In this document: positions 1-36,603 of the stretch, one piece after another | How positions within the stretch are numbered: position 1 is the first letter of the stretch | How the letters are laid out: every line of letters starts with the position of its first letter | DNA from: a virus | Length of the DNA stretch: 36,603 bases | Strand: one strand, 5' to 3' | Virus record (IMG/VR): IMGVR_UViG_3300046737_000089 | Notes under the pieces: model-generated | What the model was told of the DNA's origin: nothing | Seen by the model: only the letters and a program-made list of their open reading frames with translations | Databases searched by the model: none | Position numbers and translations under genes: made by a program

Positions 1-127
1 ATTCTTTCATATGTCGGTGAACTTAATGTTCTACATATCCTTGTGCGTTTAATTTTTTCGCCAGCATTTGTTAAAAAGTTATAACTCAATTCATATAATT
101 TAGAGTCGTTATATGTTGTTATAAAAT
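1..127. repeat. Terminal direct repeat, copy 1 (identical to 36477..36603); circular-assembly overlap
   Basis: Bases 1..127 (attctttcatatgtcggtgaac...gttgttataaaat) recur exactly at 36477..36603. Confidence 0.9.
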
Positions 128-7174: not shown

Positions 7175-8731
7175 CTAAATTCTAATATTAGGGTTGTATA
7201 TATTACCTATATTAGCATTGTTTCTTAAAGCAGGGAAGGCAAAAGTTAAAGCAAGCGCGTCGCCCTCGTCCGGACTCCGGACACCTCGAGCACGCATTCT
7301 ATCTTTACTTTCTAATGTGACGCGCCCGAGTGAATCTGCATCATAAAATGGAGCGCATAAATCAGAATGTAACGAATCGCTATCAGGAATTGATACAGGG
7401 ACTTCTTTTAACCAATCACCCATTAATGACCATATCTCAGCACGTTTGTTTGCGTATCTATCCTCCTGTAAAGCTACACCTCCAAAGTTAACTGCCTTAA
7501 CTATCTGACCATGACCAAGTTCACGCAAGCGGTCAATAATACCTACGCCAAGACCTGTTACATCAATACAAATAAAATCTGGCTGTTCTGTTTTAATTAA
7601 ATTAATTAATATGCCGACTGTTTGCATCGTATCTTTATTTTGATAGCTTTGGAGACCATAGGCAACGCGCCCTTGGCGAATAATAATAGATGTTCTGTCA
7701 CGATGTGAACCCATATTTTCTGGGTCACCACCTGCTGGATCCACACCTATAAATTTAACCCCAGAAGCACCAACAGTACATTTCCTGGCTTTTTCAACAG
7801 ACAAGCTGGAAATAATGCAATTGCCACCCGTAACAATAAATGCTTCTTCTGCTGTTGAAGGATATTCTTGCTTAAAACCAAGCTCTTTAAGTTGACTACT
7901 GTTAGTCGTAATGCGGCGCCAATGCATCTGCTCGTTATCTAGATTATAAAGCTTCTTATATTCGTGCTCTTCATCAGTTAATGCAAAGTATCCTGGGTCA
8001 CCTACTTTAAGCCCTACAGGTAATGGCTCTCTATATTCATCGCTCCAATACCAAGGAATAAATACGGGTAGAAATTCATTTTCACCACGATTAGCTTCAT
8101 CCCATAAATTATAAAAGATGTTACCTTTACCTTGTGCAGTACTTTCAAGGATGACTTCTGTATTTGCTATCCTAGGGATTGCTTGCATAATGCCATCTAA
8201 ATGTTGTATGCCGTTCTCCCATAAACCTACTTCTGAACCATGAAACAACTGGATTGTATTCGAGCGCCCAATGCCTTTACTGCCTGCTGTGCCTACTTTA
8301 TAACCTGATTCTGGAGAAAGGAAATTAAGTTCTTTAGAACTGTTCGCGCCTTCAATCGGACGAACAAACAAAGGACAGTAAGTATGGTAACGCTTTACCA
8401 TCTCAAATAGATTATCTGTTGCTCTTTGCTCATGAGTAAGAATAAATGCACGATAACCTGTTCTATGTGAAACAATATGATAAAATCGACCGCCAACATA
8501 AGTAGAAATGCCTTGCTGCCTGCCTTTCAAAATAATAACGCGAACACGTCCTGTTTTTTTTCTTTGCTCTTCTATTTTGGAATGTAAATAAAGTTGTGGT
8601 TTATTAAGTGCGAACGGAAGGATTTCGCCAGGTTTCGTCCGAATCATCAAGCATTTGTAGGCATAATGCGGGAAGTTATTTTTTAGTTTTAGTCTTAATT
8701 GAATTTCTCTTTCTGTCATTACTACTGACAT
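7175..8731 (-). CDS. terL: Terminase large subunit
   Basis: 518 aa with a Walker-A-like ILKGRQQGIST and a C-terminal nuclease-type region (FIGVDPAGG...DVTGLGVG...DEGDALAL), upstream of the portal. Confidence 0.9.
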   Translation of the reverse strand: MSVVMTEREIQLRLKLKNNFPHYAYKCLMIRTKPGEILPFALNKPQLYLHSKIEEQRKKTGRVRVIILKGRQQGISTYVGGRFYHIVSHRTGYRAFILTHEQRATDNLFEMVKRYHTYCPLFVRPIEGANSSKELNFLSPESGYKVGTAGSKGIGRSNTIQLFHGSEVGLWENGIQHLDGIMQAIPRIANTEVILESTAQGKGNIFYNLWDEANRGENEFLPVFIPWYWSDEYREPLPVGLKVGDPGYFALTDEEHEYKKLYNLDNEQMHWRRITTNSSQLKELGFKQEYPSTAEEAFIVTGGNCIISSLSVEKARKCTVGASGVKFIGVDPAGGDPENMGSHRDRTSIIIRQGRVAYGLQSYQNKDTMQTVGILINLIKTEQPDFICIDVTGLGVGIIDRLRELGHGQIVKAVNFGGVALQEDRYANKRAEIWSLMGDWLKEVPVSIPDSDSLHSDLCAPFYDADSLGRVTLESKDRMRARGVRSPDEGDALALTFAFPALRNNANIGNIYNPNIRI

Positions 8732-8749
8732 AATCGACCTTTAACATGT

Positions 8750-9106
8750 TCATTCATTATCTACTGCTTTCTTCGATAAAATATATTCAATCTTCTTAAC
8801 GCCAAACGGGAAACTTAAAATATACATACCGTCTCTTTCTGTTACTTCTGCACTTAAAAATGCTTCACGTAAATGCTGATTAACATTCAGTGATGCTAAC
8901 AACATATCTAAGTTATGCGCGTGTCCTGAAGCGTTTTCTCTATGTAAATATTCCATAATCTTCGCATGGTCTTTAACGCAATTTTTCATTTCACAATCTC
9001 TATTAATTATGTTTGATTTAAATTCTTCTGGAAGCTTTACATCAGAAGCAATTACTTCCGTCTTTGCAGCCCGTAATATTCTTTTAGCCCATCTATCGTT
9101 TAACAT
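8750..9106 (-). CDS. Hypothetical protein (immediately upstream of terL)
   Basis: 118-aa ORF in the track, co-directional and tightly packed. Confidence 0.55.
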   Translation of the reverse strand: MLNDRWAKRILRAAKTEVIASDVKLPEEFKSNIINRDCEMKNCVKDHAKIMEYLHRENASGHAHNLDMLLASLNVNQHLREAFLSAEVTERDGMYILSFPFGVKKIEYILSKKAVDNE

Positions 9107-9438
9107 TATAAATTACCATCTTTTCTTAATTGTTTTCTAATTTGGAAAAGCGCTATCCCGACTTTTTCTTCTATGTGTTCAATTGCCTCTTTATCAGAAA
9201 GATTATTAATAAACTTACCTATTTCATACCTTACATTTGCTTCACCAGTACCTTCAGGATGAGCCGCGCATCTACCATAAACAGCTTTAATCTCTAGACC
9301 TTCATCTAGAATAGAATGGTCTAATCGTGAATTAATCTCAAAAGTATTCGCGCTATATTTCGGGAAAGGAGGCGAATCTTTTAAAAAGAGATTAAACTTA
9401 TAATTTAAATCCCGAACAACATCTTCTAATTTAATCAT
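9106..9438 (-). CDS. Hypothetical protein
   Basis: 110-aa ORF whose start/stop abuts its neighbours. Confidence 0.55.
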   Translation of the reverse strand: MIKLEDVVRDLNYKFNLFLKDSPPFPKYSANTFEINSRLDHSILDEGLEIKAVYGRCAAHPEGTGEANVRYEIGKFINNLSDKEAIEHIEEKVGIALFQIRKQLRKDGNL

Positions 9439-9653
9439 AATAAATTCCCCTGAAATATCATTCCTTTGATTTGTTTCTCAGCCAAAGGATGCAATGCATT
9501 AATAGCCGAAGCAAAAGAATACGCTAAGTCAATAGCCATATGCAAATCTTCTTGAGAATTACGGCTTAATCTTGGGTCAACTTTAGCCACTGGCAACGGC
9601 ATAGTTTCTAAACTCGCTGGGTAACCGTCGGGATGAACATCAAAATCAGTCAT
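9435..9653 (-). CDS. Hypothetical protein
   Basis: 72-aa ORF with a 4-nt overlap with the next gene. Confidence 0.5.
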   Translation of the reverse strand: MTDFDVHPDGYPASLETMPLPVAKVDPRLSRNSQEDLHMAIDLAYSFASAINALHPLAEKQIKGMIFQGNLL

Positions 9654-9838
9654 TAAATTTCTCCTCGTTTTTCTTTGTCTATTTCGTTTCGTTCACCACG
9701 ATAACGCGCAAGTCTTTCTTTGTCGCTAATTGGTTTTGGTTTAGCAGCATCTTGAAGTGACACCGAAACGAACTTACCATTTACTATCTTTCCAATGCCA
9801 TTGACTAACTTGCCATCTTTAATTGACATATTTATCAC
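9653..9838 (-). CDS. Hypothetical protein (GTG start in the track; ATG MSIKDGK... at 9829 is possible)
   Basis: 61-aa ORF, packed. Confidence 0.45.
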   Translation of the reverse strand: MINMSIKDGKLVNGIGKIVNGKFVSVSLQDAAKPKPISDKERLARYRGERNEIDKEKRGEI

Positions 9839-9993
9839 TCACATTTAATTATAAATTCTTCTGACTCGATGATTAGTTCTTTAATCTTTAATTTATATTT
9901 ATCACCACATTTCGTGTCGTATATAGCGACTTCAATATCACCGAACCTATCATACGCTTCTTCTAAGCTATGCATCAACTCTAATACTTTCAT
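9835..9993 (-). CDS. Hypothetical 52-aa protein (MKVLELMHSLEEAYDRFGDIEVAIYDTKCGDKYKL...), below the track cutoff
   Basis: My own translation. The ATG overlaps the upstream TGA (ATGA) and it fills an otherwise empty 150-bp gap. Confidence 0.45.
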   Translation of the reverse strand: MKVLELMHSLEEAYDRFGDIEVAIYDTKCGDKYKLKIKELIIESEEFIIKCE

Positions 9994-10202
9994 TTAACGT
10001 TGCCTTCTGCCTCATTTTCTAGGATGCCTTTAATCCTGTCTATTTCTTTCCACGCCGCATGTAAACTTGCTTTTACATATTCATTCTCTTGTGTCAACCG
10101 CATAATCATACGGCGATTAAATTCTGCGATATCAAATGGTTTCTTTTCGTTTATCATTTTTTCTCTCTTCACACGTCTTACAGGGAAATTCGAAATCTTC
10201 AA
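9990..10202 (-). CDS. Hypothetical protein (likely start MINEKKPF... at 10157)
   Basis: ORF track; coiled-coil-like sequence. Confidence 0.5.
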   Translation of the reverse strand: MKISNFPVRRVKREKMINEKKPFDIAEFNRRMIMRLTQENEYVKASLHAAWKEIDRIKGILENEAEGNVK

Positions 10203-10437
10203 ATTCTATTTCTGGAAAAACTTTACCGCAAATACAGGTTACGGAAGACCATCCGGCGGGTAAAGTATCATGATGAGTCCCTGGCACAAACATAATCTGA
10301 TGTCCGCAACTTACTTTAAATATTCTATGCCCTCCATGCCTGGCAGCAGTTATGTTGCAATTATCACAATGAACAATGCGGCACTCCATTCGTTTTTTAT
10401 ATTCATCCATTAGTTGCTGGGAAGTTTCTATAATCAT
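10132..10437 (-). CDS. Cys/His-rich putative zinc-binding protein
   Basis: 101 aa with several CxxC/CxC/H clusters (CDNCN, CGH, CICG, CKTC). Confidence 0.5.
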   Translation of the reverse strand: MIIETSQQLMDEYKKRMECRIVHCDNCNITAARHGGHRIFKVSCGHQIMFVPGTHHDTLPAGWSSVTCICGKVFPEIEFEDFEFPCKTCEERKNDKRKETI

Positions 10438-10679
10438 TTCTCTTCTTCTTTATGCCAACTAATAAATGTTACAGGAGAAATCGATGCATCCTTACAGTAT
10501 ATGTACTGCACATTAAATCCATTGCTCCTCAAGCATTCTTGTTCCTTATCGCTAAGGATTCCATTAACCTGCGCTGTATATTGACCATTATTAGCTGCAT
10601 TTATAATCTGCAGCCTCAAATTATATCCAATCCCCGTATGGTTGATATCGCTGATTTTTCTCATTTCATCTGCTGTCAT
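10434..10679 (-). CDS. Hypothetical protein
   Basis: 81-aa ORF with 4-nt overlaps on both sides. Confidence 0.5.
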   Translation of the reverse strand: MTADEMRKISDINHTGIGYNLRLQIINAANNGQYTAQVNGILSDKEQECLRSNGFNVQYIYCKDASISPVTFISWHKEEEK

Positions 10680-10912
10680 TTCTTTTCTCTATTTATCATT
10701 GTAATAACAAAATCATTTTCGCCAGCATAACATTTTACGGTTTCACCTGTTGCCAATGCTTCAGCCATTAACCTCTTATTCTCTTTAATATTCATATTTA
10801 AAAAATCTAACCATTCATAAATATCTGCTGATTTCTTCTGTAATTCATCGGTGTCATTTGCTTTCAATATACATGATGGACCATTCTGAACTATATATTT
10901 ATCGTCTATCAT
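10676..10912 (-). CDS. Hypothetical protein
   Basis: 78-aa ORF, packed. Confidence 0.5.
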   Translation of the reverse strand: MIDDKYIVQNGPSCILKANDTDELQKKSADIYEWLDFLNMNIKENKRLMAEALATGETVKCYAGENDFVITMINREKK

Positions 10913-11034
10913 TTCTTTTTCCTTTTGCCTTTCAATATTCCAGTCCCAGCATCAGCTTGATTAAATTCTTTTCCAACTTTAACTGGTATGCCAACTTTCT
11001 TAGCGAACTTTGGATTGTGTGCAACAGCCGCCAT
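10909..11034 (-). CDS. Small basic 41-aa protein (MAAVAHNPKFAKKVGIPVKVGKEFNQADAGTGILKGKRKKK), below the track cutoff
   Basis: My own translation. Its TGA overlaps the next ATG (ATGA) and it lies between the NAMPT-like gene and the next ORF. Confidence 0.45.
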   Translation of the reverse strand: MAAVAHNPKFAKKVGIPVKVGKEFNQADAGTGILKGKRKKK

Positions 11035-11050
11035 AAGGCGTGCTTGTTTT

Positions 11051-12469
11051 TTAGTTTTGCTTGGCATTCGCTCTCTCCCGAATATCGTTTAAATCACTTT
11101 GATTGTAAAGTTTTCCATCTTCATAGACAACACGAAGCAAGCCGCTTTGCTCTTCTTCGGCTGAGCAATGCTCCTTTGTAGAAATAATGTCGTCTTTGTT
11201 TTCTAAGCATAGTAAACCTTGATGAGATTTCTTTTTTGCATCTGTGATTGGGTCTTTAACGATATCAAATGGCTTTCCATGTCTTTCACCATAAGTTGCT
11301 TTAAATGTAATTCCCAAATCATCTCTATTATGTTGTTGTAATAACAAGCCGCCCAGGCCAATGACAAGATTTGATGCGGCATAGTCCATCGCGTGCATGT
11401 CCTGTAATATATGTTTATATCGTTCATAGTACATTCCATCCCCATAAATTAAACCAATCTTTGGGTTTAAAACCTTAAAGCCTTTTGAATTAGTTGTGCT
11501 GCCAAATGTACTGTCTAATAATCTTAAGCAGCCAGTTTTTTCAAATACGTTTGTGCCTTCTTGATTGCCACATATAATCTTATGTGGGTCACCGCTATCT
11601 GGGCGAATAACTACTTTACCATCACGCGCTATTATTTCATCTTTAAGTTGCGGCAATATGTTTACGAGCACTTTCCATAAGTTGTAACTATCAGCAACGA
11701 TGCTAAGAATGCCGGTAGGATACAATTTAAGCATAGCTCGAAAGGCATCGATTTCATTTTCTTTTCCATAAGCGCACATAACACTATGCTCACTAGCTGG
11801 CACGCTATACCCAGAGATACCGTCAGCCATATAGTATTGATCGAGCAGCTTAACGGCGGGAACTGTATCAGTACCGAGAAAATTACATAAGTGAGCGGCT
11901 CCAGAAAGTGCCGCTGTTTCTTCAGAAGAACAACCCCGATAACCAAAGTCATGAAGCATAAAAGGAATTGGACTTGTATCGTCACATGTCATCTCCACAA
12001 ACTTTGTAATTAGCTTTTTCATTTCATAGCTATATGTAGCCACACTAATTGTGTTCCAAACTTTCAGTAATAATGATTCGACGTAACCGACTAACCAATA
12101 AAAATCAGGATGAGTATTAGTAATTGTCATCAATACATTTTTAACAGGCAATACCATTCCTTCAGGCACAGCTTTAATCTTTAATGGTAGATAACCTAAT
12201 TTATACAAGTTCAAAAATGCCGCTACTAGAGAAGATGGACAACTGCCTAATATTTGTTTTCGATAATGCACAGCTTCTTGTATGTCTTCGTAGCTGATTG
12301 GATTTAAATACTGCTTCAAATAATATTGCAATCCAAAAAACATTTGTTCTTTGTATTTATGGTCACTGCGCGATATTAAATAGGAATAAACTTTATTCAT
12401 GCCTTCTGGATATTGTTCGATGTGACCGAATTTATAAGCGTCTGTCATTAATAATAGATTATTGTTCAT
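11051..12469 (-). CDS. nadV: Nicotinamide phosphoribosyltransferase family protein (NAMPT/NadV-like); candidate nicotinamide ADPR-transferase (Namat) of a NARP1-type pair
   Basis: 472 aa with NAMPT-family signatures: LMTDAYKFGH, HDFGYRG, SVPASEHSV, ADSYN, VIRPDSGDP, GLIYGDG. Confidence 0.9.
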   Translation of the reverse strand: MNNNLLLMTDAYKFGHIEQYPEGMNKVYSYLISRSDHKYKEQMFFGLQYYLKQYLNPISYEDIQEAVHYRKQILGSCPSSLVAAFLNLYKLGYLPLKIKAVPEGMVLPVKNVLMTITNTHPDFYWLVGYVESLLLKVWNTISVATYSYEMKKLITKFVEMTCDDTSPIPFMLHDFGYRGCSSEETAALSGAAHLCNFLGTDTVPAVKLLDQYYMADGISGYSVPASEHSVMCAYGKENEIDAFRAMLKLYPTGILSIVADSYNLWKVLVNILPQLKDEIIARDGKVVIRPDSGDPHKIICGNQEGTNVFEKTGCLRLLDSTFGSTTNSKGFKVLNPKIGLIYGDGMYYERYKHILQDMHAMDYAASNLVIGLGGLLLQQHNRDDLGITFKATYGERHGKPFDIVKDPITDAKKKSHQGLLCLENKDDIISTKEHCSAEEEQSGLLRVVYEDGKLYNQSDLNDIRERANAKQN

Positions 12470-13256
12470 TGATTATTTTCTCGTAAAAACTTTCATAGTT
12501 ATAAGACCGAATTTGAGTTATTCCAGCATCTACCAGCGGCGCAGTTCCTTTGCTAAATATCCCATGCGTTATATAAAGGGCAATTTTAGATACTTCACGT
12601 TCTTTTAATTGCTTTGCTATTTCTATAAATGTTGCGCCACCATCACAAATGTCATCAACTATTAATATACGTTTGTTTTTAAAATCAACATAATTAGGCA
12701 ATGTAATTGAATTAATCTTTCCGGTTGTTTGGTCGCGGTCTTTTAGGCACTGCGCAGCTTTAGCGGGAGTCGCTTCGTAGTAACGTTCAAATGCTCCGAA
12801 ATCAGGTAATAACATTAAGTTGCTATTGGTTTCTTCAAAAAGATATTTAATTTCATCATAAGGAATGTAGTTAATGACTTTTGCGTCTATATAGAAATAA
12901 GAACGCTCAGAATGCACATCTAAAGTATGGACTACGTCTTCATTGGTAGAAAAATCATTAAATAATGACTGGAAACATATAGACGCGAAACAAGTATGAT
13001 TCCTTATATATTTATCCTGCCTAGCATAGGGAAGATAAGGAATTATATAGATAATCGGGTGCATAATTAAGTCAGCTAATTGACCAAGCCAAATCAATTC
13101 TGCTTCTTGCTCAAACACCCAATAAACATAAACTTTATCAGTATCTTTTAAATCATCAATATACGGCACTTTCCAAACCTGGCTTGTTTTATCTGGAAAT
13201 ATCGTTGGCTTAATTTCAATACGCTCATGTTCATTAACTTTTAAATAAATTGCCAT
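12459..13256 (-). CDS. Ribose-phosphate pyrophosphokinase (PRPP synthetase)-like protein; candidate ADPR-pyrophosphate synthetase (Adps) of a NARP1-type pair
   Basis: 265 aa with the PRTase/PRPP loop RILIVDDICDGGATFIE and LDVHSE (compare Prs DLHA/S). Overlaps the NAMPT-like gene by 11 nt. Confidence 0.8.
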   Translation of the reverse strand: MAIYLKVNEHERIEIKPTIFPDKTSQVWKVPYIDDLKDTDKVYVYWVFEQEAELIWLGQLADLIMHPIIYIIPYLPYARQDKYIRNHTCFASICFQSLFNDFSTNEDVVHTLDVHSERSYFYIDAKVINYIPYDEIKYLFEETNSNLMLLPDFGAFERYYEATPAKAAQCLKDRDQTTGKINSITLPNYVDFKNKRILIVDDICDGGATFIEIAKQLKEREVSKIALYITHGIFSKGTAPLVDAGITQIRSYNYESFYEKIINEQ

Positions 13257-13268
13257 TTATGCTCCCTC

Positions 13269-13364
13269 TTAAAATCCAATAAACCCGTAATGCATTGCAG
13301 ACGTGCCTAATAAGAAGCCAAGTAGAGCGCACATTATTATAATTAACACACTAATAGAATTCAT
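13269..13364 (-). CDS. 31-aa hydrophobic peptide (MNSISVLIIIMCALLGFLLGTSAMHYGFIGF), putative membrane peptide
   Basis: My own translation; a single TM-like segment that fills the gap after the Prs-like gene. Confidence 0.35.
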   Translation of the reverse strand: MNSISVLIIIMCALLGFLLGTSAMHYGFIGF

Positions 13365-13367
13365 GAT

Positions 13368-13598
13368 TTATCTTTTCTCCAAGCCGCTTTTCAACATTTT
13401 GAATCTCTGCTCGCAATAATCTCCCCATTTATCTTCCGGTGGCAAATCTTCTGAATCGACCCCAAAAGATTCATGATAGGCTATGCCTAATTCACATTTA
13501 ATAGCGGGGCGTCCTTCTAATTCAGTAAACGACGCTCTGAGCACTCTGTTATTATCATTAATCCAGTTTATAAATTTCATTATCTTTTCATTTTGCAT
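13368..13598 (-). CDS. Hypothetical protein
   Basis: 76-aa ORF in the track. Confidence 0.5.
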   Translation of the reverse strand: MQNEKIMKFINWINDNNRVLRASFTELEGRPAIKCELGIAYHESFGVDSEDLPPEDKWGDYCEQRFKMLKSGLEKR

Positions 13599-13729
13599 GT
13601 ATGTATCTCTCCACAGTTAGAACACGTATAAGAATGCTTATCAACAGAGCTTTTAATTAGCTCTTCAAGCTCGGTTATTCTATTCTCTAAACTAAGTATT
13701 ACTTCTAAAAGTTTTATAACCTCAGACAT
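13580..13729 (-). CDS. Hypothetical 49-aa protein (MSEVIKLLEVILSLENRITELEELIKSS...CSNCGEIHTC), below the track cutoff
   Basis: My own translation; TAATG overlap with the upstream stop. Confidence 0.4.
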   Translation of the reverse strand: MSEVIKLLEVILSLENRITELEELIKSSVDKHSYTCSNCGEIHTCKMKR

Positions 13730-13914
13730 TAGTTAATCTCCAATACGCACGTATATTGAATATCAATGTTACGCGTATATTGCTCCCCTAAATTTCTAGC
13801 ATGTAAGATTGCATGTTGCGCTGCTTGTTCGCATAGCTTGTGCGAAACGAAATTATCTATATGCGTCATTCCAACCGCACCGTTTAAATATAAGAAAAAC
13901 ATTAATGACCACAT
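13729..13914 (-). CDS. Hypothetical protein with a hydrophobic N-terminus
   Basis: 61-aa ORF in the track. Confidence 0.45.
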   Translation of the reverse strand: MWSLMFFLYLNGAVGMTHIDNFVSHKLCEQAAQHAILHARNLGEQYTRNIDIQYTCVLEIN

Positions 13915-13919
13915 TTTAA

Positions 13920-14183
13920 TTACCCCTTTAATCCAGCAAAAATTCTATTAATAGCAATCACCTCAGGTGGTACTCCTGATAATGTCTGATGCTTAACCCA
14001 TTCTGGGTCTCGTAATTGCGACACCCATTTTTCAAGCTTTGCGCCAATATCTGCTTTTACTTCATCAGAATAATGCTCGCAAATATAAAGTATGCCGTGC
14101 TCATGCTTGCATGTTTCACAATACATTAATTCACCCTCACACTCTAAGACGGTAAAGTTTCTAAAAGATGAATATCTAGCCAC
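13920..14183 (-). CDS. Hypothetical protein (GTG start preceded by GGAGG)
   Basis: 87-aa ORF with a strong Shine-Dalgarno (ccGGAGGcgcGTG). Confidence 0.55.
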   Translation of the reverse strand: MARYSSFRNFTVLECEGELMYCETCKHEHGILYICEHYSDEVKADIGAKLEKWVSQLRDPEWVKHQTLSGVPPEVIAINRIFAGLKG

Positions 14184-14285
14184 GCGCCTCCGGGTAGTTT
14201 TTTTTCAAAAATCTCAAGCGCTTCTATAGAATTAGCTGCTTCTATTAGAATTTTCACAGCAAGCCCATCTAATAAAAATTTAATC

Positions 14286-14690
14286 TTATACACCCTCATA
14301 ATTGCCCCACACTTTTTGAGCTATATCTCTAAGCTTTCCAGATACAACCGTGGTGGCGGCTTCTTTATCTGGGCCCATCCAATGAATACTCGTTTTACCT
14401 TTTGGTTGCTCACCTAACGAAAATATGGTGACATGTTCCAAATCAAAAAGCACCGTATGGAACTGTCCGCAATCATCTACGTGCTCAACTTCTAATATTC
14501 TTTTCATAGATTTTTTCTCTCTCTGTTGTTTAGGATCATGTGGAAAGAATCCCGCGGCGGCATAAAACTTATAACAACTCATGCACACAAGCAGGTCAGT
14601 TTTTTTGTAATCTGTTATAACGGTAAACTTAGGTGCAATATCTTCTAGCCCGCACGCTTCGCAGGATTTTATTTTGTAATCACTTTTCAT
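14286..14690 (-). CDS. Hypothetical protein with an N-terminal CxxC...CxxC zinc-ribbon-like motif
   Basis: 134-aa ORF with CEAC...CMSC. Confidence 0.55.
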   Translation of the reverse strand: MKSDYKIKSCEACGLEDIAPKFTVITDYKKTDLLVCMSCYKFYAAAGFFPHDPKQQREKKSMKRILEVEHVDDCGQFHTVLFDLEHVTIFSLGEQPKGKTSIHWMGPDKEAATTVVSGKLRDIAQKVWGNYEGV

Positions 14691-14863
14691 TTAAAATTTC
14701 CAAATCTAAGTTCAATTACAGCTTTCTTCTGTTCCTGCGTCGTTTTCACAGGCTTAAAAAACGCTGCGCAACATTTAGCTAACTCTTTATCTACTTCTTC
14801 ATTATGTTTTTTGGCATTACGCCTATGCCATTCATAATCTTTACTTGTCGGTACGTACATCAT
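14687..14863 (-). CDS. Hypothetical protein (start moved to MMYVPTSK...)
   Basis: The ATG at 14863 forms an ATGA overlap with the stop of the 14860..15039 ORF; the tracked ORF extends to 14884. Confidence 0.45.
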   Translation of the reverse strand: MMYVPTSKDYEWHRRNAKKHNEEVDKELAKCCAAFFKPVKTTQEQKKAVIELRFGNFK

Positions 14864-15039
14864 GATTCCAATTCCTCTATGCACATTATCTCAGTTATAT
14901 TTCTTTCTACACACTCATCAATTTTTACGTGACTCTGTGCGGCACGGAATGCATCTTTGAAAGATTCGGCTTCTACATAAATTAAAGACTGCGGATATCT
15001 ATCTCCTTTTTTTCCAAATAGGATTTTATAAGTCTTCAC
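14860..15039 (-). CDS. Hypothetical 59-aa protein (VKTYKILFGKKGDRYPQSLIYVEAESFKDAF...), GTG start, below the track cutoff
   Basis: My own translation; GTGA overlap with the terS stop, preceded by GAGGAA. Confidence 0.45.
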   Translation of the reverse strand: MKTYKILFGKKGDRYPQSLIYVEAESFKDAFRAAQSHVKIDECVERNITEIMCIEELES

Positions 15040-15422
15040 TCCAATTCCTCAATCTGCTTTTGTCTGTCCTGATGGTCTTTAACAATATCAATCTTATGTT
15101 CATTCTCATGAAGTAATTGTAAATGTCGTGCTAAAAGTTCATTTGCTTTTAATTTTGTTGGCATGAATTTTTCATTTTCATGCTCTGCAATATTTTTAAT
15201 ATTATTTAAAACATATTCTGCAGTTATCCCTAGTTTTTCAGCTTCTTTACTCATAATTTTTTCTATTTTTAACTTAATTTGAGGTTTATTGAGGTTCTCA
15301 TATGCCATCTCTCCAGATGTCTTTTTACTGTATCCAGCTTTAATTGCTGACTGCATTCCATTGCCTGTTTTTATATATTCTCTGACAAATCTTTTTTGCT
15401 TAAGAGTTAATTTCTTTTCCAT
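15036..15422 (-). CDS. terS: Terminase small subunit (Terminase_2-type)
   Basis: LTLKQKRFVREYIKTGNGMQSAIKAGYSKKTSGEMAYENLNKPQIKLKIEKI is a close match to the conserved TerS N-terminal HTH pattern. Confidence 0.85.
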   Translation of the reverse strand: MEKKLTLKQKRFVREYIKTGNGMQSAIKAGYSKKTSGEMAYENLNKPQIKLKIEKIMSKEAEKLGITAEYVLNNIKNIAEHENEKFMPTKLKANELLARHLQLLHENEHKIDIVKDHQDRQKQIEELE

Positions 15423-15972: not shown

Positions 15973-16159
15973 TGTTTTCTCGTTTAATTACATCGTAATC
16001 TTTCAATGCATTAAAAAGTTCTTCTGTTATTTCTTTTGTTCCCAATAAAAAACCACGCTTAAAATATTCATCGCCTTCAATCTTGCCATGATATCGTTGT
16101 TCTAAAATAACACGGCAATTATTGAGTAAACTTTTAAGCTTTAAATCTTCAGGTTTCAT
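15962..16159 (-). CDS. Hypothetical protein
   Basis: 65-aa ORF in the track. Confidence 0.45.
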   Translation of the reverse strand: MKPEDLKLKSLLNNCRVILEQRYHGKIEGDEYFKRGFLLGTKEITEELFNALKDYDVIKRENNDT

Positions 16160-16656
16160 AATTGTGACCGTGCAATTTCTATTAACCGTTTGTCCGCTTT
16201 CGTTAAAACATCTAACAATAAACGCTTTTCTTCTAAATAAACTTTAGCAAATTTCGGGTCGTGATAAACAATAGACCCAGTATTACTAATTAAATCCGCA
16301 ACTTTAATTGTTTGAACATATGCGTCGCAGCCACTTAATCTTTCACGTGAGATTTTTTTTCGCGTCTCTCTATTTCCTTCTGCTAAATCAGACAACAACT
16401 CTACCGCTCTGGCAATTAAATAGCTAAATTTTTCTTCCAATTCTCTAAAATGAATGCCGCAATCTTCCATGCAATCATGGAGCCATCCTATTGCTTGCCA
16501 TTCATCAATAGTTATTCCAAAATCTGGATTAAAAACAGATAATGAAATTCCAACTACTTCAGCTAAATGCTCAAAATAAGGATTATGCGTATATTTACGC
16601 CGCTGCTCTTTATGAACGTCTCTAGCAAAAACCATAGCTTTATATGCAATATCCAT
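16156..16656 (-). CDS. HD-domain RelA/SpoT-type hydrolase (small alarmone hydrolase, SAH/Mesh1-like)
   Basis: FARDVHKEQRRKYTHNPYFEHLAEV...AIGWLHDCMEDCGIHFRELEEKF...TIKVADLISN follows the (p)ppGpp-hydrolase HD motif order. At 166 aa it is a single domain with no synthetase. Confidence 0.85.
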   Translation of the reverse strand: MDIAYKAMVFARDVHKEQRRKYTHNPYFEHLAEVVGISLSVFNPDFGITIDEWQAIGWLHDCMEDCGIHFRELEEKFSYLIARAVELLSDLAEGNRETRKKISRERLSGCDAYVQTIKVADLISNTGSIVYHDPKFAKVYLEEKRLLLDVLTKADKRLIEIARSQL

Positions 16657-17828: not shown

Positions 17829-17984
17829 CTAAATATTCAAACTATCTTTAACAGGCATAGACGCTTCTCGCCATGCATACGACTTACACTTAGGGCACGC
17901 AATAGGCTCAGCTTTTCTAGGAACCCATACCCAAAGACATCGAGCGCATTTTACGTTATCTACTTTCGTTGCTGTTTTTTTCAT
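17829..17984 (-). CDS. 51-aa zinc-ribbon protein (MKKTATKVDNVKCARCLWVWVPRKAEPIACPKCKSYAWREASMPVKDSLNI), below the track cutoff
   Basis: My own translation. CxxC-x16-CxxC with conserved-looking W/R spacing; overlaps the rsr 3' end by 29 nt. Confidence 0.5.
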   Translation of the reverse strand: MKKTATKVDNVKCARCLWVWVPRKAEPIACPKCKSYAWREASMPVKDSLNI

Positions 17985-19272
17985 GCTCTATAATAAACCT
18001 AAATATATTTTCACTAAAACCGCTTATGTGAATACCTTTATTATAAGCTATTCCGTTCTTATAAGAAGCAACATTAATAATATAATTCTCAATCCTACGT
18101 TTAAGCAAAACGTTATCTGCGTTCTGTTCATCTGTAATAATAATAAGCCGGTCATAAGGAAAGCTTTTATGCAGTGCATTAACAGCAGCGCCTAAATACG
18201 TTCCTCCATTCGACTGACTGTGCATAATGTTTTTTATCAGTGAGAAATTATTTACCGCAGCTACTTCAACAAACGATTCAGAAAATGTGAAAATTCTTAC
18301 ATCTTCAAAATAATTTACTGCCAATAATGCTAACGCACCTGCAGCGTCCATTCGAGTTACTTCAGACTTACCAGACAACCTATCATTCATCGACCCTGAA
18401 ACATCAACTAACACTACCGTTTTTCCGTTCAATTTCTCAAATTTACTTTTCAAAAAAGCCTTTTCTAAAGCAACTGTATATTGGGGCGCATGAACAGCAG
18501 CGGTTATTAATCTAAATGGCAATACTCTTTCAAAATTCGCAACATCAAAATAGGATTCAATCAACTCATTAGATACACCAGCAGCATACATATTACGAAG
18601 GTTTCTAATAAATGCTAATGCACCTAATTTATTTTCTGTCATCAATCGTTCAAATGTTTCTTTCTTATTTGCGCCTGATGATAATGCAACTTCCCATGTG
18701 TCAGGACTTTCTAATTCATTATTAGCAAGCTTTTTCCATATTACCGCTTGCTCTTCATTGTCTGGTTTTGGATGTACTAAAAACATTACATCCCGTAATT
18801 TAATTGCTTTCGACTGATTATTATATTTAGCTAATTGATAAGCATTAAAGTGTGTAAATGCTAATCCCAGTCCTTTTTTCACTTGATTAGGAATTGGTTT
18901 TTTACCATCTTTCCAATAAATCGCTAAAAATTCAGTGATTTCATCAGGGCGAGCAATAATCCTTTCTAACGCGTGAGCCATTCCAGCATATTTTTTTTCA
19001 ACTAAGATTACTAATAACAACAGAGGAACATGACGTAAGTGCATTGCATGACGCGCGCCGAGAGCTAGTAAATAAATGTGTTCATTATCTACTTTCTGAC
19101 ATAACTCAACTAATCTAGACGCATGGTCTTGACCGTTTTCATAGAATGATTTTTCCCACAAAAAACAGCTCATCACTGAACGTTCAAGTTCTTGCAATGG
19201 AGATATCTTAGATGCCCTACCGCCTTCATGCGTAGTTATTAACTCAGGGATAGAATGATTAATTGAAGCCAT
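17956..19272 (-). CDS. rsr: Ro60/Rsr orthologue (TROVE domain plus vWA/MIDAS domain)
   Basis: Collinear matches to Ro60 as I recall it: CFLWEKSFYENG, KLRDVMFLVHPKP, LGALAFIRNLRNM, VLPFRLITA, VVLVDVSGSMN (MIDAS DxSxS), GGTYLG, LIIITDEQ. Confidence 0.9.
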   Translation of the reverse strand: MASINHSIPELITTHEGGRASKISPLQELERSVMSCFLWEKSFYENGQDHASRLVELCQKVDNEHIYLLALGARHAMHLRHVPLLLLVILVEKKYAGMAHALERIIARPDEITEFLAIYWKDGKKPIPNQVKKGLGLAFTHFNAYQLAKYNNQSKAIKLRDVMFLVHPKPDNEEQAVIWKKLANNELESPDTWEVALSSGANKKETFERLMTENKLGALAFIRNLRNMYAAGVSNELIESYFDVANFERVLPFRLITAAVHAPQYTVALEKAFLKSKFEKLNGKTVVLVDVSGSMNDRLSGKSEVTRMDAAGALALLAVNYFEDVRIFTFSESFVEVAAVNNFSLIKNIMHSQSNGGTYLGAAVNALHKSFPYDRLIIITDEQNADNVLLKRRIENYIINVASYKNGIAYNKGIHISGFSENIFRFIIEHEKNSNESR

Positions 19273-19386: not shown

Positions 19387-19524
19387 AGATGCTACAGAAC
19401 AAGCGATACACTTATTTTTCGTGCTCTACCAACTGAGCTACCACTCGTTACCGAATGAGATGGACTCGAACCACCGACCACGTCATTACAAGTGAAGTAA
19501 GTGTATCTATCACTAGCAGCATCT
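19387..19524 (-). ncRNA. Y-RNA-like module B (YrlA-type): interrupted long stem enclosing a circularly permuted tRNA-like domain
   Basis: Minus strand: agatgctgc/gtagcatct (9 bp) and gatacactta/taagtgtatc (10 bp) flank an internal loop. Inside are T-arm GGTGG-TTCGAGT-CCATC, a 7-bp acceptor-like stem TCATTCG-GTAA-CGAGTGG closed by a GNRA loop, and a canonical D-arm TA-GCTC-AGTTGGTA-GAGC. Confidence 0.7.
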
Positions 19525-36140: not shown

Positions 36141-36603
36141 TGTGGCTGTATCTCCATATCGATTGCTGCGCCTAAAATATAAATAGGAACAGCGTTATAT
36201 ATTTCAAATTTCCAAATAGCATCTCTATAAGTTCCTAATCTTTGCCACATGATTCTTATATTTCTATCGCCCGCTTTCCCAAATGATTCACTTCCAAAAG
36301 AATGATAGGTATCTCCACCATCTTCAGAAACGCTTAAGAACACCATTGGGTCAACATCTGCGCTCGCTTCCAATTGTGCTTGCGTTGTCTTAGGTGGTGG
36401 CGGCAATGAACTTAATGGTTTCGTATTTATTTTTCCTACACCTTTCAACATATCCACTTGAAGACGCGCATATTTAATTCTTTCATATGTCGGTGAACTT
36501 AATGTTCTACATATCCTTGTGCGTTTAATTTTTTCGCCAGCATTTGTTAAAAAGTTATAACTCAATTCATATAATTTAGAGTCGTTATATGTTGTTATAA
36601 AAT
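36137..36603 (-). CDS. Tail hub protein, P22 gp10-like, C-terminal part (same gene as 1..1163; whole gene about 500 aa across the junction)
   Basis: Tracked ORF 36137..36565 is in frame with the open ORF at 1..1163 through the 127-bp overlap. C-terminus DRNIRIMWQRLGTYRDAIWKFEIY...ILGAAIDMEIQPQ parallels the gp10 C-terminus. Confidence 0.7.
   Translation of the reverse strand, partial: FITTYNDSKLYELSYNFLTNAGEKIKRTRICRTLSSPTYERIKYARLQVDMLKGVGKINTKPLSSLPPPPKTTQAQLEASADVDPMVFLSVSEDGGDTYHSFGSESFGKAGDRNIRIMWQRLGTYRDAIWKFEIYNAVPIYILGAAIDMEIQPQ
36477..36603. repeat. Terminal direct repeat, copy 2 (identical to 1..127)
   Basis: Exact 127-bp match to the window start. Confidence 0.9.

What the first reader, a model, noticed from the sequence alone, without database searches (positions are those of the whole stretch)
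11051..13256. PRPP-synthetase-like plus NAMPT-like overlapping gene pair without any NMNAT: candidate NARP1-type NAD+ reconstitution (counter-defence) system
Two co-directional genes overlap by 11 nt (12459..12469), which implies co-expression.

- The upstream 265-aa protein carries the Prs/PRTase ribose-phosphate loop (RILIVDDICDGGATF) and a DVHSE element.
- The downstream 472-aa protein has the full NAMPT/NadV signature set (MTDAYKFGH, HDFGYRG, PASEHSV, IRPDSGDP, GLIYGDG).
- I could find no NMN adenylyltransferase or Nudix motif in any ORF of the 36.5-kb genome, so the classical Nam to NMN to NAD route (NadV plus NMNAT, the KVP40/NARP2 type) cannot be completed by the phage alone.

As I recall, exactly this two-enzyme composition was reported in 2024 (Sorek laboratory) as NARP1. 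There a Prs homologue (Adps) pyrophosphorylates ADP-ribose and a NAMPT homologue (Namat) condenses ADPR-PP with nicotinamide to rebuild NAD+ from the products of NAD-depleting defences (Thoeris, DSR1/2, SIR2-HerA and similar).

The pair sits in an accessory stretch that also contains an alarmone hydrolase and a Ro/Y-RNA module, which is consistent with a counter-defence role. The alternative is an ordinary PRPP supply plus NMN synthesis that relies on host NadD/NadR.
Basis: partly seen in the sequence, partly recalled or inferred. Interest (0 to 1): 0.85.

Follow-up and report, generated by a model that had tools for sequence, protein, structure and literature searches.

The report
NARP1-like NAD-rebuilding pair, clamp-less transferase
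A small P22-like phage carries two overlapping genes that most likely rebuild NAD+ from the fragments left by NAD-destroying bacterial defences. The second enzyme belongs to an unstudied sister branch that lacks the adenine "clamp" published as the hallmark of such enzymes.

Summary
Two minus-strand genes, 12459-13256 (265 aa) and 11051-12469 (472 aa), overlap by 11 nt. The genome is closed and encodes no NMNAT or Nudix protein.

- **First protein.** It is an Adps (ADP-ribose pyrophosphokinase), not a housekeeping Prs. It groups with validated Adps (99% bootstrap). It has the remodelled Adps loop C-D-G-G-A-T-F, the catalytic lysine and the truncated C-terminus, and it scores far below Prs cut-offs.
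- **Second protein.** It has a complete Nampt/Namat catalytic core but fails the published Namat signature. It reads GGLLLQQHNRD where Namat has GS[FY]xYx[YF]xTRD.
- **Placement.** It lies in a separate clade (91% bootstrap) outside the canonical aromatic Namat clade (100%). Both sit inside one Adps-associated superclade (100%) that excludes the KVP40, Xanthomonas and human Nampt.
- **Association.** Every member of this clade with readable upstream DNA has an Adps gene in front, in phages and in Pedobacter-type nrtR-prs-nadV operons.

Best reading (about 0.6): NARP1-type chemistry, ADPR to ADPR-PP to NAD+, done by an early-branching transferase without the clamp that may be less selective. Rival (about 0.2): NMN synthesis completed by the host. 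This is a new variant of a known system and is moderately interesting.

The parts
12459..13256 (-). adps-like gene (265 aa): PRPS-fold ADP-ribose pyrophosphokinase candidate
   Evidence: - ORF.
- phrog_619 E=2e-49.
- TIGR01251 84 bits against a cut-off of 113, compared with validated Adps at 98-140 and E. coli Prs at 423.
- In an NJ tree it falls in a clade with SPbetaL1, Ounavirinae, ICP1 and GH15 Adps, 99% bootstrap.
- Residues mapped from the ICP1 Adps structure: F20, R79, H115, D152, K172, D201-D202, and loop C204-D-G-G-A-T-F210.
- AF2 model pLDDT 92; PRPS fold with TM 0.70-0.75.
11051..12469 (-). Nampt/Namat-family nicotinamide transferase (472 aa), clamp-less sister lineage of Namat
   Evidence: - PF18127 + PF04095, and NF006629 at 556 bits.
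- Catalytic core conserved: D10, Y12, F175, R178, D201, H228, R289, D291, G343, D344, R382, D383.
- The clamp-helix (SCH) equivalent at residues 373-383 reads GGLLLQQHNRD.
- Trees.
- AF2 model pLDDT 87.
12459..12469 (-). 11-nt overlap ATGAACAATAA (transferase start codon inside the adps 3' end)
   Evidence: Sequence read directly. Translational coupling is inferred. Overlaps or very short gaps recur in related loci.
13262..13268 (-). Shine-Dalgarno GAGGGAG, 5 nt upstream of the adps ATG
   Evidence: Read directly. No convincing promoter or terminator lies next to the pair: one search found counts below shuffled expectation. The pair is therefore probably read as part of the long minus-strand unit.

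Best explanation
The pair is a NARP1-type NAD+ reconstitution module of a previously uncharacterised lineage.

**Step 1 (inferred from sequence and structure mapping).** The 265-aa enzyme is an Adps. It binds ADP-ribose across the ancestral ATP + ribose-5-phosphate surface of the PRPS fold. It uses its remodelled loop C204-D-G-G-A-T-F210 and Lys172 to transfer the beta,gamma-pyrophosphate of ATP to the distal ribose, giving ADPR-PP.

**Step 2 (inferred from operon logic and phylogeny).** The 472-aa Nampt-family enzyme is translationally coupled to Adps. It displaces the pyrophosphate with nicotinamide and gives NAD+ directly, so no NMNAT is needed.

**What differs from canonical NARP1.** The transferase lacks the aromatic adenine clamp of canonical Namat. 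It probably binds the AMP part of ADPR-PP differently or less selectively, and it may also make NMN from PRPP.

**Biological role (inferred by analogy).** To keep NAD+ available when the host fires NADase defences such as Thoeris, DSR, SIR2-HerA or SEFIR.
For: **Adps membership.**
- 99% bootstrap with validated Adps against archaeal and E. coli Prs.
- All four loop or hairpin positions that separate Adps from Prs are in the Adps state: C204, G206, F210, I181, where Prs has I, T, L/I/M and S/V/M.
- Catalytic K172 is present, along with F20, R79, H115, D152, D201 and D202.
- There are only 36 residues after the TH motif, against 67 in E. coli Prs, so the alpha11-12 module is missing.
- These criteria come from the ICP1 Adps structures (PMC13586617).
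- Purified SPbetaL1 Adps made no PRPP.

**The loop is a family-wide feature.**
- 240 of 250 relatives carry DD[IL]CDGGxTF.

**Transferase placement and shared residues.**
- The transferase lies in one superclade with all canonical Namat (100% bootstrap). That superclade excludes the KVP40-like, Salicola phage SCTP-2, Xanthomonas, Acidobacteria and human Nampt, none of which has an Adps neighbour.
- It shares with Namat the invariant IGxIYGD (Nampt: VRxIQGD), EHSVMC, and G386/A391/T392. It has the Namat state at 24 of 55 discriminating columns.

**Gene association.**
- Every window-clade locus with upstream DNA has a co-directional Adps gene: the window itself, L013-L015, L017, L037, L096-L103, L106, L176 and L177.

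**Absence of an alternative route.**
- The genome is closed and has no NMNAT or Nudix gene.

**Biochemical precedent.**
- Even KVP40 Nampt converts ADPR-PP to NAD+ in vitro.

**Bacterial context.**
- In bacteria the same pair sits behind NrtR, a repressor released by ADPR.
Against: **The published Namat signature is absent.**
- SPbetaL1 F392, Y396 and T398 correspond to L375, Q379 and N381 here.
- S190, S391 and A/S362 are all Gly, as in Nampt.
- The clamp helix reads like that of the Nampt of Salicola phage SCTP-2 (GGQLLQAHNRDD), which sits next to an NMNAT/Nudix gene.

**Clamp loss has measured consequences.**
- In SPbetaL1 Namat the clamp double mutant R40A/F392G lost about 17-fold ADPR-PP-dependent activity and lost anti-defence function, while keeping NMN synthesis.
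- Haemophilus ducreyi NadV has a degraded clamp and is used as an NMN-forming enzyme.

**Limits of this analysis.**
- No member of the window clade has been assayed.
- The trees are neighbour-joining with few Prs and Nampt outgroups.
- Adps F92 (an adenine contact) is Ile84 here, although it also varies in other Adps.
Confidence: 0.6

Rival explanations
1. Classical salvage booster. The upstream enzyme supplies PRPP (or the transferase simply draws on host PRPP). The downstream enzyme is an ordinary Nampt making NMN, and host NadR/NadM or PncC+NadD+NadE finish the job.
For: - The transferase has a Nampt-type clamp helix (GGLLLQQHNRD) and Nampt-state Gly at three ligand-contact positions.
- Clamp mutants of a real Namat keep NMN synthesis but lose ADPR-PP use.
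- Bacterial prs-nadV operons were originally read this way (PMC2330246).
- NF006629 is passed, although it does not separate Namat from Nampt.
Against: - The upstream protein has the Adps donor loop rather than the Prs ribose-5-phosphate loop DxTGGT. It groups with enzymes shown to make ADPR-PP and not PRPP.
- A dedicated Adps would then be pointless, yet it is kept in every clade member.
- Phage Nampt enzymes that work through NMN almost always come with their own Nmnat: 94% in Osterman et al.. None is present here.
Confidence: 0.2
2. Same NARP1-type chemistry, but not a counter-defence device. The pair would be a general ADPR-recycling and NAD+-homeostasis module inherited from bacterial nrtR-adps-nadV operons, for example to recycle ADPR from ADP-ribosyltransferase or NAD-consuming reactions during infection.
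For: - The closest cellular relatives (56-57% identity) are chromosomal genes of Pedobacter and Mucilaginibacter behind NrtR.
- 41 of 80 genome loci combine NrtR, Adps-like and Nampt-family genes.
- Authors of the Namat structure paper also propose housekeeping roles for bacterial NARP1.
Against: - In phages every tested NARP1 acted against NAD-depleting defences.
- The pair sits among small accessory ORFs of a phage that has no NrtR.
- ADPR is scarce unless an NADase fires.
Confidence: 0.12

Closest known systems
NARP1 (Adps + Namat) of phages Bas63, SPbetaL1, Fado, ICP1 (NrsAB) and DyoEdafos, and of Paenibacillus foliorum
   Same: - Two-gene operon with adps first and the Nampt-family transferase second.
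- Adps clade membership, remodelled C-D-G-x-x-T/S-F loop, catalytic Lys and truncated C-terminus.
- Complete nicotinamide/ribose catalytic core.
- No NMNAT in the genome.
- Shared IGxIYGD and EHSVMC motifs.
   Different: - The transferase lacks the aromatic clamp helix (GGLLLQQHNRD instead of GS[FY]TYQ[YF]NTRD) and has a shorter clamp loop.
- It belongs to a sister clade with at most 42.5% identity to any cultured-phage homologue.
- No clade member has been tested biochemically.
NARP2 (Nampt/NadV + bifunctional Nmnat-Nudix) of Vibrio phage KVP40; also Salicola phage SCTP-2
   Same: - Nampt-type GGxLLQ...RD helix.
- Gly at the positions equivalent to S190, S391 and A362.
- Short beta1-beta2 loop.
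   Different: - No Nmnat or Nudix gene in a closed genome.
- An Adps gene is present.
- The transferase is phylogenetically outside the KVP40/Xanthomonas/human group (100% bootstrap for the split).
- It has G/Y instead of R/Q in the xGD strand.
Bacterial NrtR-regulated prs-nadV operons (Rodionov et al. 2008, PMC2330246)
   Same: - A prs paralogue directly upstream of nadV.
- The nearest cellular relatives of the window transferase (Pedobacter, Mucilaginibacter, candidate-phyla-radiation MAGs) have exactly nrtR - adps-like - transferase.
   Different: - The phage has no NrtR.
- The 2008 reading (extra PRPP supply for NMN synthesis) predates the discovery of Adps. The prs paralogues seen here carry the Adps loop.

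Membership tests
Adps (ADPR-PP synthetase, NARP1 step 1) | PRPS-like two-domain fold | tested here: met
   AF2 model pLDDT 92. Foldseek best matches are PRPP synthetases, TM 0.70-0.75 with 16-22% identity.
Adps (ADPR-PP synthetase, NARP1 step 1) | Falls in the Adps clade, separate from cellular Prs | tested here: met
   NJ tree, 99% bootstrap with SPbetaL1, Ounavirinae, ICP1 and GH15 Adps against E. coli and three archaeal Prs (few outgroups). TIGR01251 gives 84 bits, like validated Adps (98-140) and unlike E. coli Prs (423).
Adps (ADPR-PP synthetase, NARP1 step 1) | Remodelled donor ('PP') loop, ICP1 C215-S220 plus lid F221, instead of the Prs I-[DS]-T-G-G-T-[LIM] | tested here: met
   C204-D205-G206-G207-A208-T209-F210. 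The same loop is found in 240 of 250 relatives.
Adps (ADPR-PP synthetase, NARP1 step 1) | Catalytic lysine on the beta-hairpin (ICP1 K185 / SPbetaL1 K162), and conserved R87, H121, D161, D212, D213 | tested here: met
   K172, R79, H115, D152, D201 and D202, all invariant in the window family.
Adps (ADPR-PP synthetase, NARP1 step 1) | Aromatic contacts to the ADPR adenine (F18 of the neighbouring protomer, F92) | tested here: inconclusive
   F20 is present and invariant. F92 aligns with Ile84 (V/I across the family), but this position also varies among other Adps references (I, E, C, N).
Adps (ADPR-PP synthetase, NARP1 step 1) | Loss of the C-terminal alpha11-alpha12 filament module | tested here: met
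   265 aa in total. 36 residues follow the TH motif, against 67 in E. coli Prs and 40 in ICP1 Adps.
Adps (ADPR-PP synthetase, NARP1 step 1) | Makes ADPR-PP from ADPR + ATP and no PRPP from ribose-5-phosphate | not testable with these tools
   Needs purified protein and LC-MS.
Namat (nicotinamide ADPR-transferase, NARP1 step 2) | Nampt-like catalytic core: nicotinamide, ribose and phosphate contacts and the catalytic His | tested here: met
   The equivalents of D13, Y15, F189, R192, D215, A242, R306, D308, G360, D361, R399 and D400 are all conserved, and the EHS histidine is present. This feature is shared with Nampt, so it does not discriminate.
Namat (nicotinamide ADPR-transferase, NARP1 step 2) | [quoted passage not shown] | tested here: not met
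   The window reads G-G-L-L-L-Q-Q-H-N-R-D. 116 of its 120 closest relatives read GG[LI]LLQ..RD. All eight cultured-phage transferases that have an Adps neighbour carry the aromatic motif, as do the great majority of the IMG/VR and genome loci outside the window clade.
Namat (nicotinamide ADPR-transferase, NARP1 step 2) | Clamp-loop (SCL) stacking residue (Arg, or Lys/Tyr followed by a stacking residue) | tested here: inconclusive
   The loop is S-D-H37-K-Y-K and is shorter than in SPbetaL1. The clade consensus is K at the R40 position. Nampt of NARP2 phages also has K/F here, so the loop is not diagnostic.
Namat (nicotinamide ADPR-transferase, NARP1 step 2) | Placement inside the canonical Namat clade | tested here: not met
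   The aromatic Namat clade is monophyletic at 100% without the window clade. The window clade has 91% support, or 86% with the clamp columns removed. Both sit in one superclade at 100%.
Namat (nicotinamide ADPR-transferase, NARP1 step 2) | adps gene within ten genes (operational criterion of Osterman et al. and Lan et al.) | tested here: met
   adps is immediately upstream and overlaps by 11 nt.
Namat (nicotinamide ADPR-transferase, NARP1 step 2) | Prefers ADPR-PP over PRPP and yields NAD+ | not testable with these tools
   Needs a competition assay with both donors.
NARP2 (Nampt + Nmnat) | Nmnat (often fused to Nudix) encoded in the same genome | tested here: not met
   None found by motif scan, Pfam or phmmer in a closed genome.
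NARP2 (Nampt + Nmnat) | Transferase in the KVP40-type Nampt clade | tested here: not met
   It is separated from phi-ST2 (KVP40-like), Miro and SCTP-2 by a 100% bootstrap split.
NrtR-regulated prs-nadV operon | NrtR (Nudix + winged-helix) regulator next to the pair | tested here: not met
   No Nudix or NrtR gene in the window. NrtR is present in the bacterial relatives L014 and L096-L103.

The most novel reading that the evidence does not exclude
The window clade may be a 'proto-NARP1'. On this reading, Nampt-family enzymes became partners of Adps before the aromatic selectivity clamp evolved.

- These clamp-less enzymes would use ADPR-PP through a different adenine cradle. Candidate elements are the clade-invariant His380, Leu375 and Lys/His37, together with the pocket-opening Gly339 and Gly386 that they share with Namat.
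- Alternatively they would be truly bifunctional, making NAD+ from ADPR-PP and NMN from PRPP.
- As a corollary, the long-unexplained 'second prs' of bacterial NrtR-regulated prs-nadV operons would be an Adps. Those operons would then be ADPR-induced ADPR-recycling modules rather than PRPP/NMN salvage.
Probability: 0.4. Interest if true: 0.6.

Novelty: new variant of a known kind. Interest (0 to 1): 0.45.

Why it matters
NARP1 is already known and common: 4.3% of sequenced phages. A plain new instance would be routine. This instance adds three things.

- **A test of the published rule.** The rule 'aromatic clamp = ADPR-PP specificity' (PMC12774641) was derived from one clade. Here a large, conserved, Adps-linked sister clade lacks the clamp. 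It has no member in cultured phages: best identity is 42.5%. It is abundant in metagenomes, in Bacteroidota and in bacteria of the candidate phyla radiation. If it still makes NAD+ from ADPR-PP, the clamp is a late refinement rather than the determinant. The shared G/Y and Gly substitutions then become candidates for the 'additional determinants' the authors could not find when they grafted the clamp onto human Nampt.
- **A practical warning for annotation.** Homology or operon-based annotation will call this pair NARP1, while a clamp-motif rule will call it Nampt.
- **A link to an older puzzle.** It connects phage counter-defence to the 2008 question of why NrtR, an ADPR sensor, controls a dedicated prs paralogue.

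Tried and rejected
- **Megablast of the region against phage records.** No match, so there is no close cultured relative.
- **NCBIfam NF006629 as a Namat/Nampt discriminator.** Rejected. SPbetaL1 Namat scores 594, ICP1 488, the KVP40-like protein 506, SCTP-2 595 and the window 556, so all pass.
- **Foldseek of the AF2 model.** Human NAMPT (TM 0.90), Namat 9w5x (0.91) and H. ducreyi NadV (0.91) are indistinguishable. There is no Adps structure in the PDB copy.
- **PDB sequence search.** Namat and Nampt are nearly equidistant, 338 against 318 bits.
- **NARP3.** Considered and rejected. It is PnuC + NadR, and neither is present here.
- **A RyR/RyDEP-type or other NAD-related helper next to the pair.** The 10 small neighbouring ORFs have no Pfam hit.
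- **Own promoter or terminator for the pair.** Nothing above shuffled expectation.
- **Rfam at gathering threshold and a tRNA scan of the window.** Nothing found.
- **A first large NJ run with Biopython.** It timed out and was redone with a numpy NJ.
- **Host identification.** Not achieved.
Full report
**1. Observation.**
- One search shows two minus-strand ORFs, 12459..13256 (265 aa) and 11051..12469 (472 aa), sharing 11 nt.
- The downstream ATG lies inside the last codons of the upstream gene. A GAGGGAG ribosome-binding site precedes the upstream ATG.
- Both proteins have overwhelming family matches. The upstream protein hits PF00156/PF14572 weakly and phrog_619 at E=2e-49. The downstream protein hits PF18127 + PF04095, NF006629 at 556 bits and phrog_448 at E=1e-165.

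**2. Genome context.**
- The window is a P22-like phage. Searches identify the coat, scaffold, portal, large terminase, small terminase, RusA, a RecT-like protein, a Ro60/TROVE-vWA protein and an HD_4 phosphohydrolase.
- Its ends repeat exactly over 127 nt, so the genome is closed.
- No NMNAT or Nudix gene exists by six-frame motif scan, by Pfam on 41 ORFs other than the pair or by phmmer.
- The pair lies between terS (15036-15422) and terL (7175-8731) among many small ORFs.
- Two related P22-like contigs, whose transferases are 79-81% identical to the window's, keep the pair at the same place.

**3. What NARP1 is.**
- Osterman et al. (bioRxiv 10.1101/2024.02.11.579819) showed that a Prs homologue (Adps) pyrophosphorylates ADPR and makes no PRPP.
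- They also showed that a Nampt homologue (Namat) joins ADPR-PP to nicotinamide to give NAD+.
- 97% of Adps-clade genes have a Namat neighbour. The separate NARP2 clade (KVP40 Nampt) nearly always comes with an Nmnat.
- Two later structural papers give sequence criteria.
  - Lan et al. 2026 (PMC12774641) define the Namat 'selectivity clamp'. [quoted passage not shown]
  - Liu et al. 2026 (PMC13586617) solved ICP1 Adps. ADPR lies on the ancestral ATP + R5P surface, the loop C215-S220 is rewired to hold the donor ATP, K185 is catalytic, and the C-terminal alpha11-12 module is lost.

**4. The upstream protein is an Adps by every sequence test available.**
- It scores 84 bits on TIGR01251 (cut-off 113). 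Validated Adps score 98-140 and E. coli Prs scores 423.
- In an NJ tree it sits with SPbetaL1, Ounavirinae, ICP1 and GH15 Adps at 99% bootstrap, against E. coli and archaeal Prs.
- Mapping the ICP1 residues gives F20, R79, H115, D152, K172, I181, D201, D202 and the loop C204-D-G-G-A-T-F210.
- The four positions that differ between Adps and Prs are all in the Adps state, and the C-terminus is short.
- Only F92 is not conserved (Ile84), and that position also varies in other Adps.
- 240 of 250 relatives carry DD[IL]CDGGxTF.
- The AF2 model (pLDDT 92) has the PRPS fold.

**5. The downstream protein is not a canonical Namat.**
- Its catalytic core is intact. That core is common to Namat and Nampt.
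- At the clamp helix it reads GGLLLQQHNRD. All eight cultured-phage transferases with an Adps neighbour read GS[FY][TS]YQ[YFC]x[TS]RD. NARP2-type and cellular Nampt read GG[GAQ]LLQxxxRD.
- Of the 120 closest database relatives (55-98% identity), 116 share the non-aromatic motif.
- I scored 55 alignment columns that separate canonical Namat from classical Nampt. The window clade has the Namat residue at 24, the Nampt residue at 15 and a third residue at 16.
- The discriminating ligand-contact positions (S190, A/S362, S391) are all in the Nampt state (Gly), and the adenine-contact positions F392, Y396 and T398 are Leu, Gln and Asn.
- It does share with Namat the invariant IGxIYGD (Nampt has VRxIQGD), EHSVMC, and G/A/T after the RD pair.
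- NF006629, PDB sequence scores and Foldseek cannot tell the two kinds apart.

**6. Phylogeny (69 taxa, NJ, 200-300 bootstraps).**
- All Adps-associated transferases form one superclade at 100%. It excludes the KVP40-like, Miro, SCTP-2, Xanthomonas, Acidobacteria and human Nampt, none of which has an Adps neighbour.
- Inside it, the aromatic Namat clade is monophyletic at 100%.
- The window clade is a separate branch at 91%, or 86% when the clamp columns are removed.
- One viral locus (L018, GGILLQCCTRD) sits at the base of the aromatic clade.
- The simplest reading is that partnership with Adps predates the aromatic clamp.
- Caveats: distance method, few outgroups, root on human NAMPT.

**7. 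Association.**
- In every window-clade locus with enough upstream DNA, a co-directional Adps-like gene lies directly upstream, usually overlapping or within about 200 nt.
- These loci are the window, L013, L014, L015, L017, L037, L096-L103, L106, L176 and L177.
- The clade has no member in cultured phages: best identity is 42.5%, to Salicola phage SCTP-2, whose gene sits beside an NMNAT/Nudix gene.
- The nearest cellular members are chromosomal genes of Pedobacter and Mucilaginibacter and of MAGs from the candidate phyla radiation, arranged nrtR - adps-like - transferase.
- This is the prs-nadV operon of Rodionov et al. 2008. Its repressor NrtR is released by ADPR, and its extra 'prs' was unexplained in that paper.

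**8. Mechanism.**
- Shown: gene structure, family and clade membership, residue conservation, and absence of NMNAT.
- Inferred: an enzyme built like Adps should make ADPR-PP rather than PRPP. ADPR-PP has no known consumer other than the coupled transferase, so the pair most likely runs ADPR to ADPR-PP to NAD+.
- Even KVP40 Nampt accepts ADPR-PP in vitro, so a clamp-less enzyme can plausibly do the reaction. It may be less selective.
- The opposing facts are the clamp-mutant data for SPbetaL1 Namat and the example of H. ducreyi NadV. That enzyme has a degraded clamp and is used as an NMN producer.
- I give NARP1-type chemistry about 0.6, plain NMN salvage about 0.2, and the same chemistry with a non-defence role about 0.1.

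**9. Verdict.**
- The pair should be filed as NARP1-like, with a bona fide Adps and a clamp-less, early-branching Namat relative. It should not be filed as a proven Namat.
- Novelty: a new variant of a known system. Interest is moderate.

Noticed in passing
window 1-127 and 36477-36603: There is an exact 127-nt direct repeat at the two contig ends. This is an assembly overlap of a circular or terminally redundant genome, so the unique genome is about 36,476 bp and complete.
   Followed up: yes
window 17956-19272 (-) and 19390-19507 (-): A Ro60/TROVE + vWA protein is present (Pfam, phrog_850). A sub-threshold, full-length YrlA (Y RNA-like) match lies just upstream of it (36.8 bits against a gathering score of 69, E=1e-5), overlapping a weak tRNA-like hit at 19451-19516. 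A phage Ro/Y-RNA module is plausible but not proven.
   Followed up: partly
window 16156-16656 (-): A 166-aa HD_4 (RelA/SpoT-type HD) phosphohydrolase is present: PF13328 E=2e-7, phrog_990 E=8e-31. It is a candidate alarmone or nucleotide-signal hydrolase. Its substrate is not examined here.
   Followed up: no
window 7175-15422 (-); L176, L177: The adps-transferase pair and about 20 small ORFs without any family match sit between the small (15036-15422) and large (7175-8731) terminase genes. This unusual split of terS and terL is conserved in two related P22-like contigs. In L176 a Band_7/SPFH gene is inserted right after the transferase.
   Followed up: partly
window 13269-13364 (-): A 31-codon hydrophobic ORF (MNSISVLIIIMCALLGFLLGTSAMHYGFIGF) lies in the short gap upstream of adps. 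Its stop codon overlaps by one base the Shine-Dalgarno sequence of adps. It may be a small membrane peptide or it may be noise.
   Followed up: no
L096-L175 (bacterial genome loci): Of 80 bacterial loci with a Nampt-family gene, 53 have an Adps-like gene in the flank, 43 have an NrtR-like gene, and 41 have both. Most of these carry the aromatic Namat motif. I found no paper in the library that connects the ADPR-sensing NrtR prs-nadV regulon with NARP1.
   Followed up: partly
PDB 9ke8 (Haemophilus ducreyi NadV) in the tree: The NMN-forming NadV of H. ducreyi nests inside the aromatic Namat clade but has a degraded clamp (GAQTYQRNTRD). This suggests secondary reversion from Namat to Nampt.
   Followed up: partly
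L018 8001-9446: An IMG/VR phage transferase has an intermediate helix, GGILLQCCTRDTY, and an Adps-like gene 1.3 kb upstream. It branches at the base of the aromatic Namat clade with 51-66% bootstrap. It is a possible transitional form.
   Followed up: no
L014, L096-L106: The bacterial members of the window clade (including those from the candidate phyla radiation) have a clamp-helix equivalent two residues shorter, GGILRNHSRD. The His before [NS]RD is the only clamp-helix (SCH) residue specific to and invariant across the whole clade.
   Followed up: no
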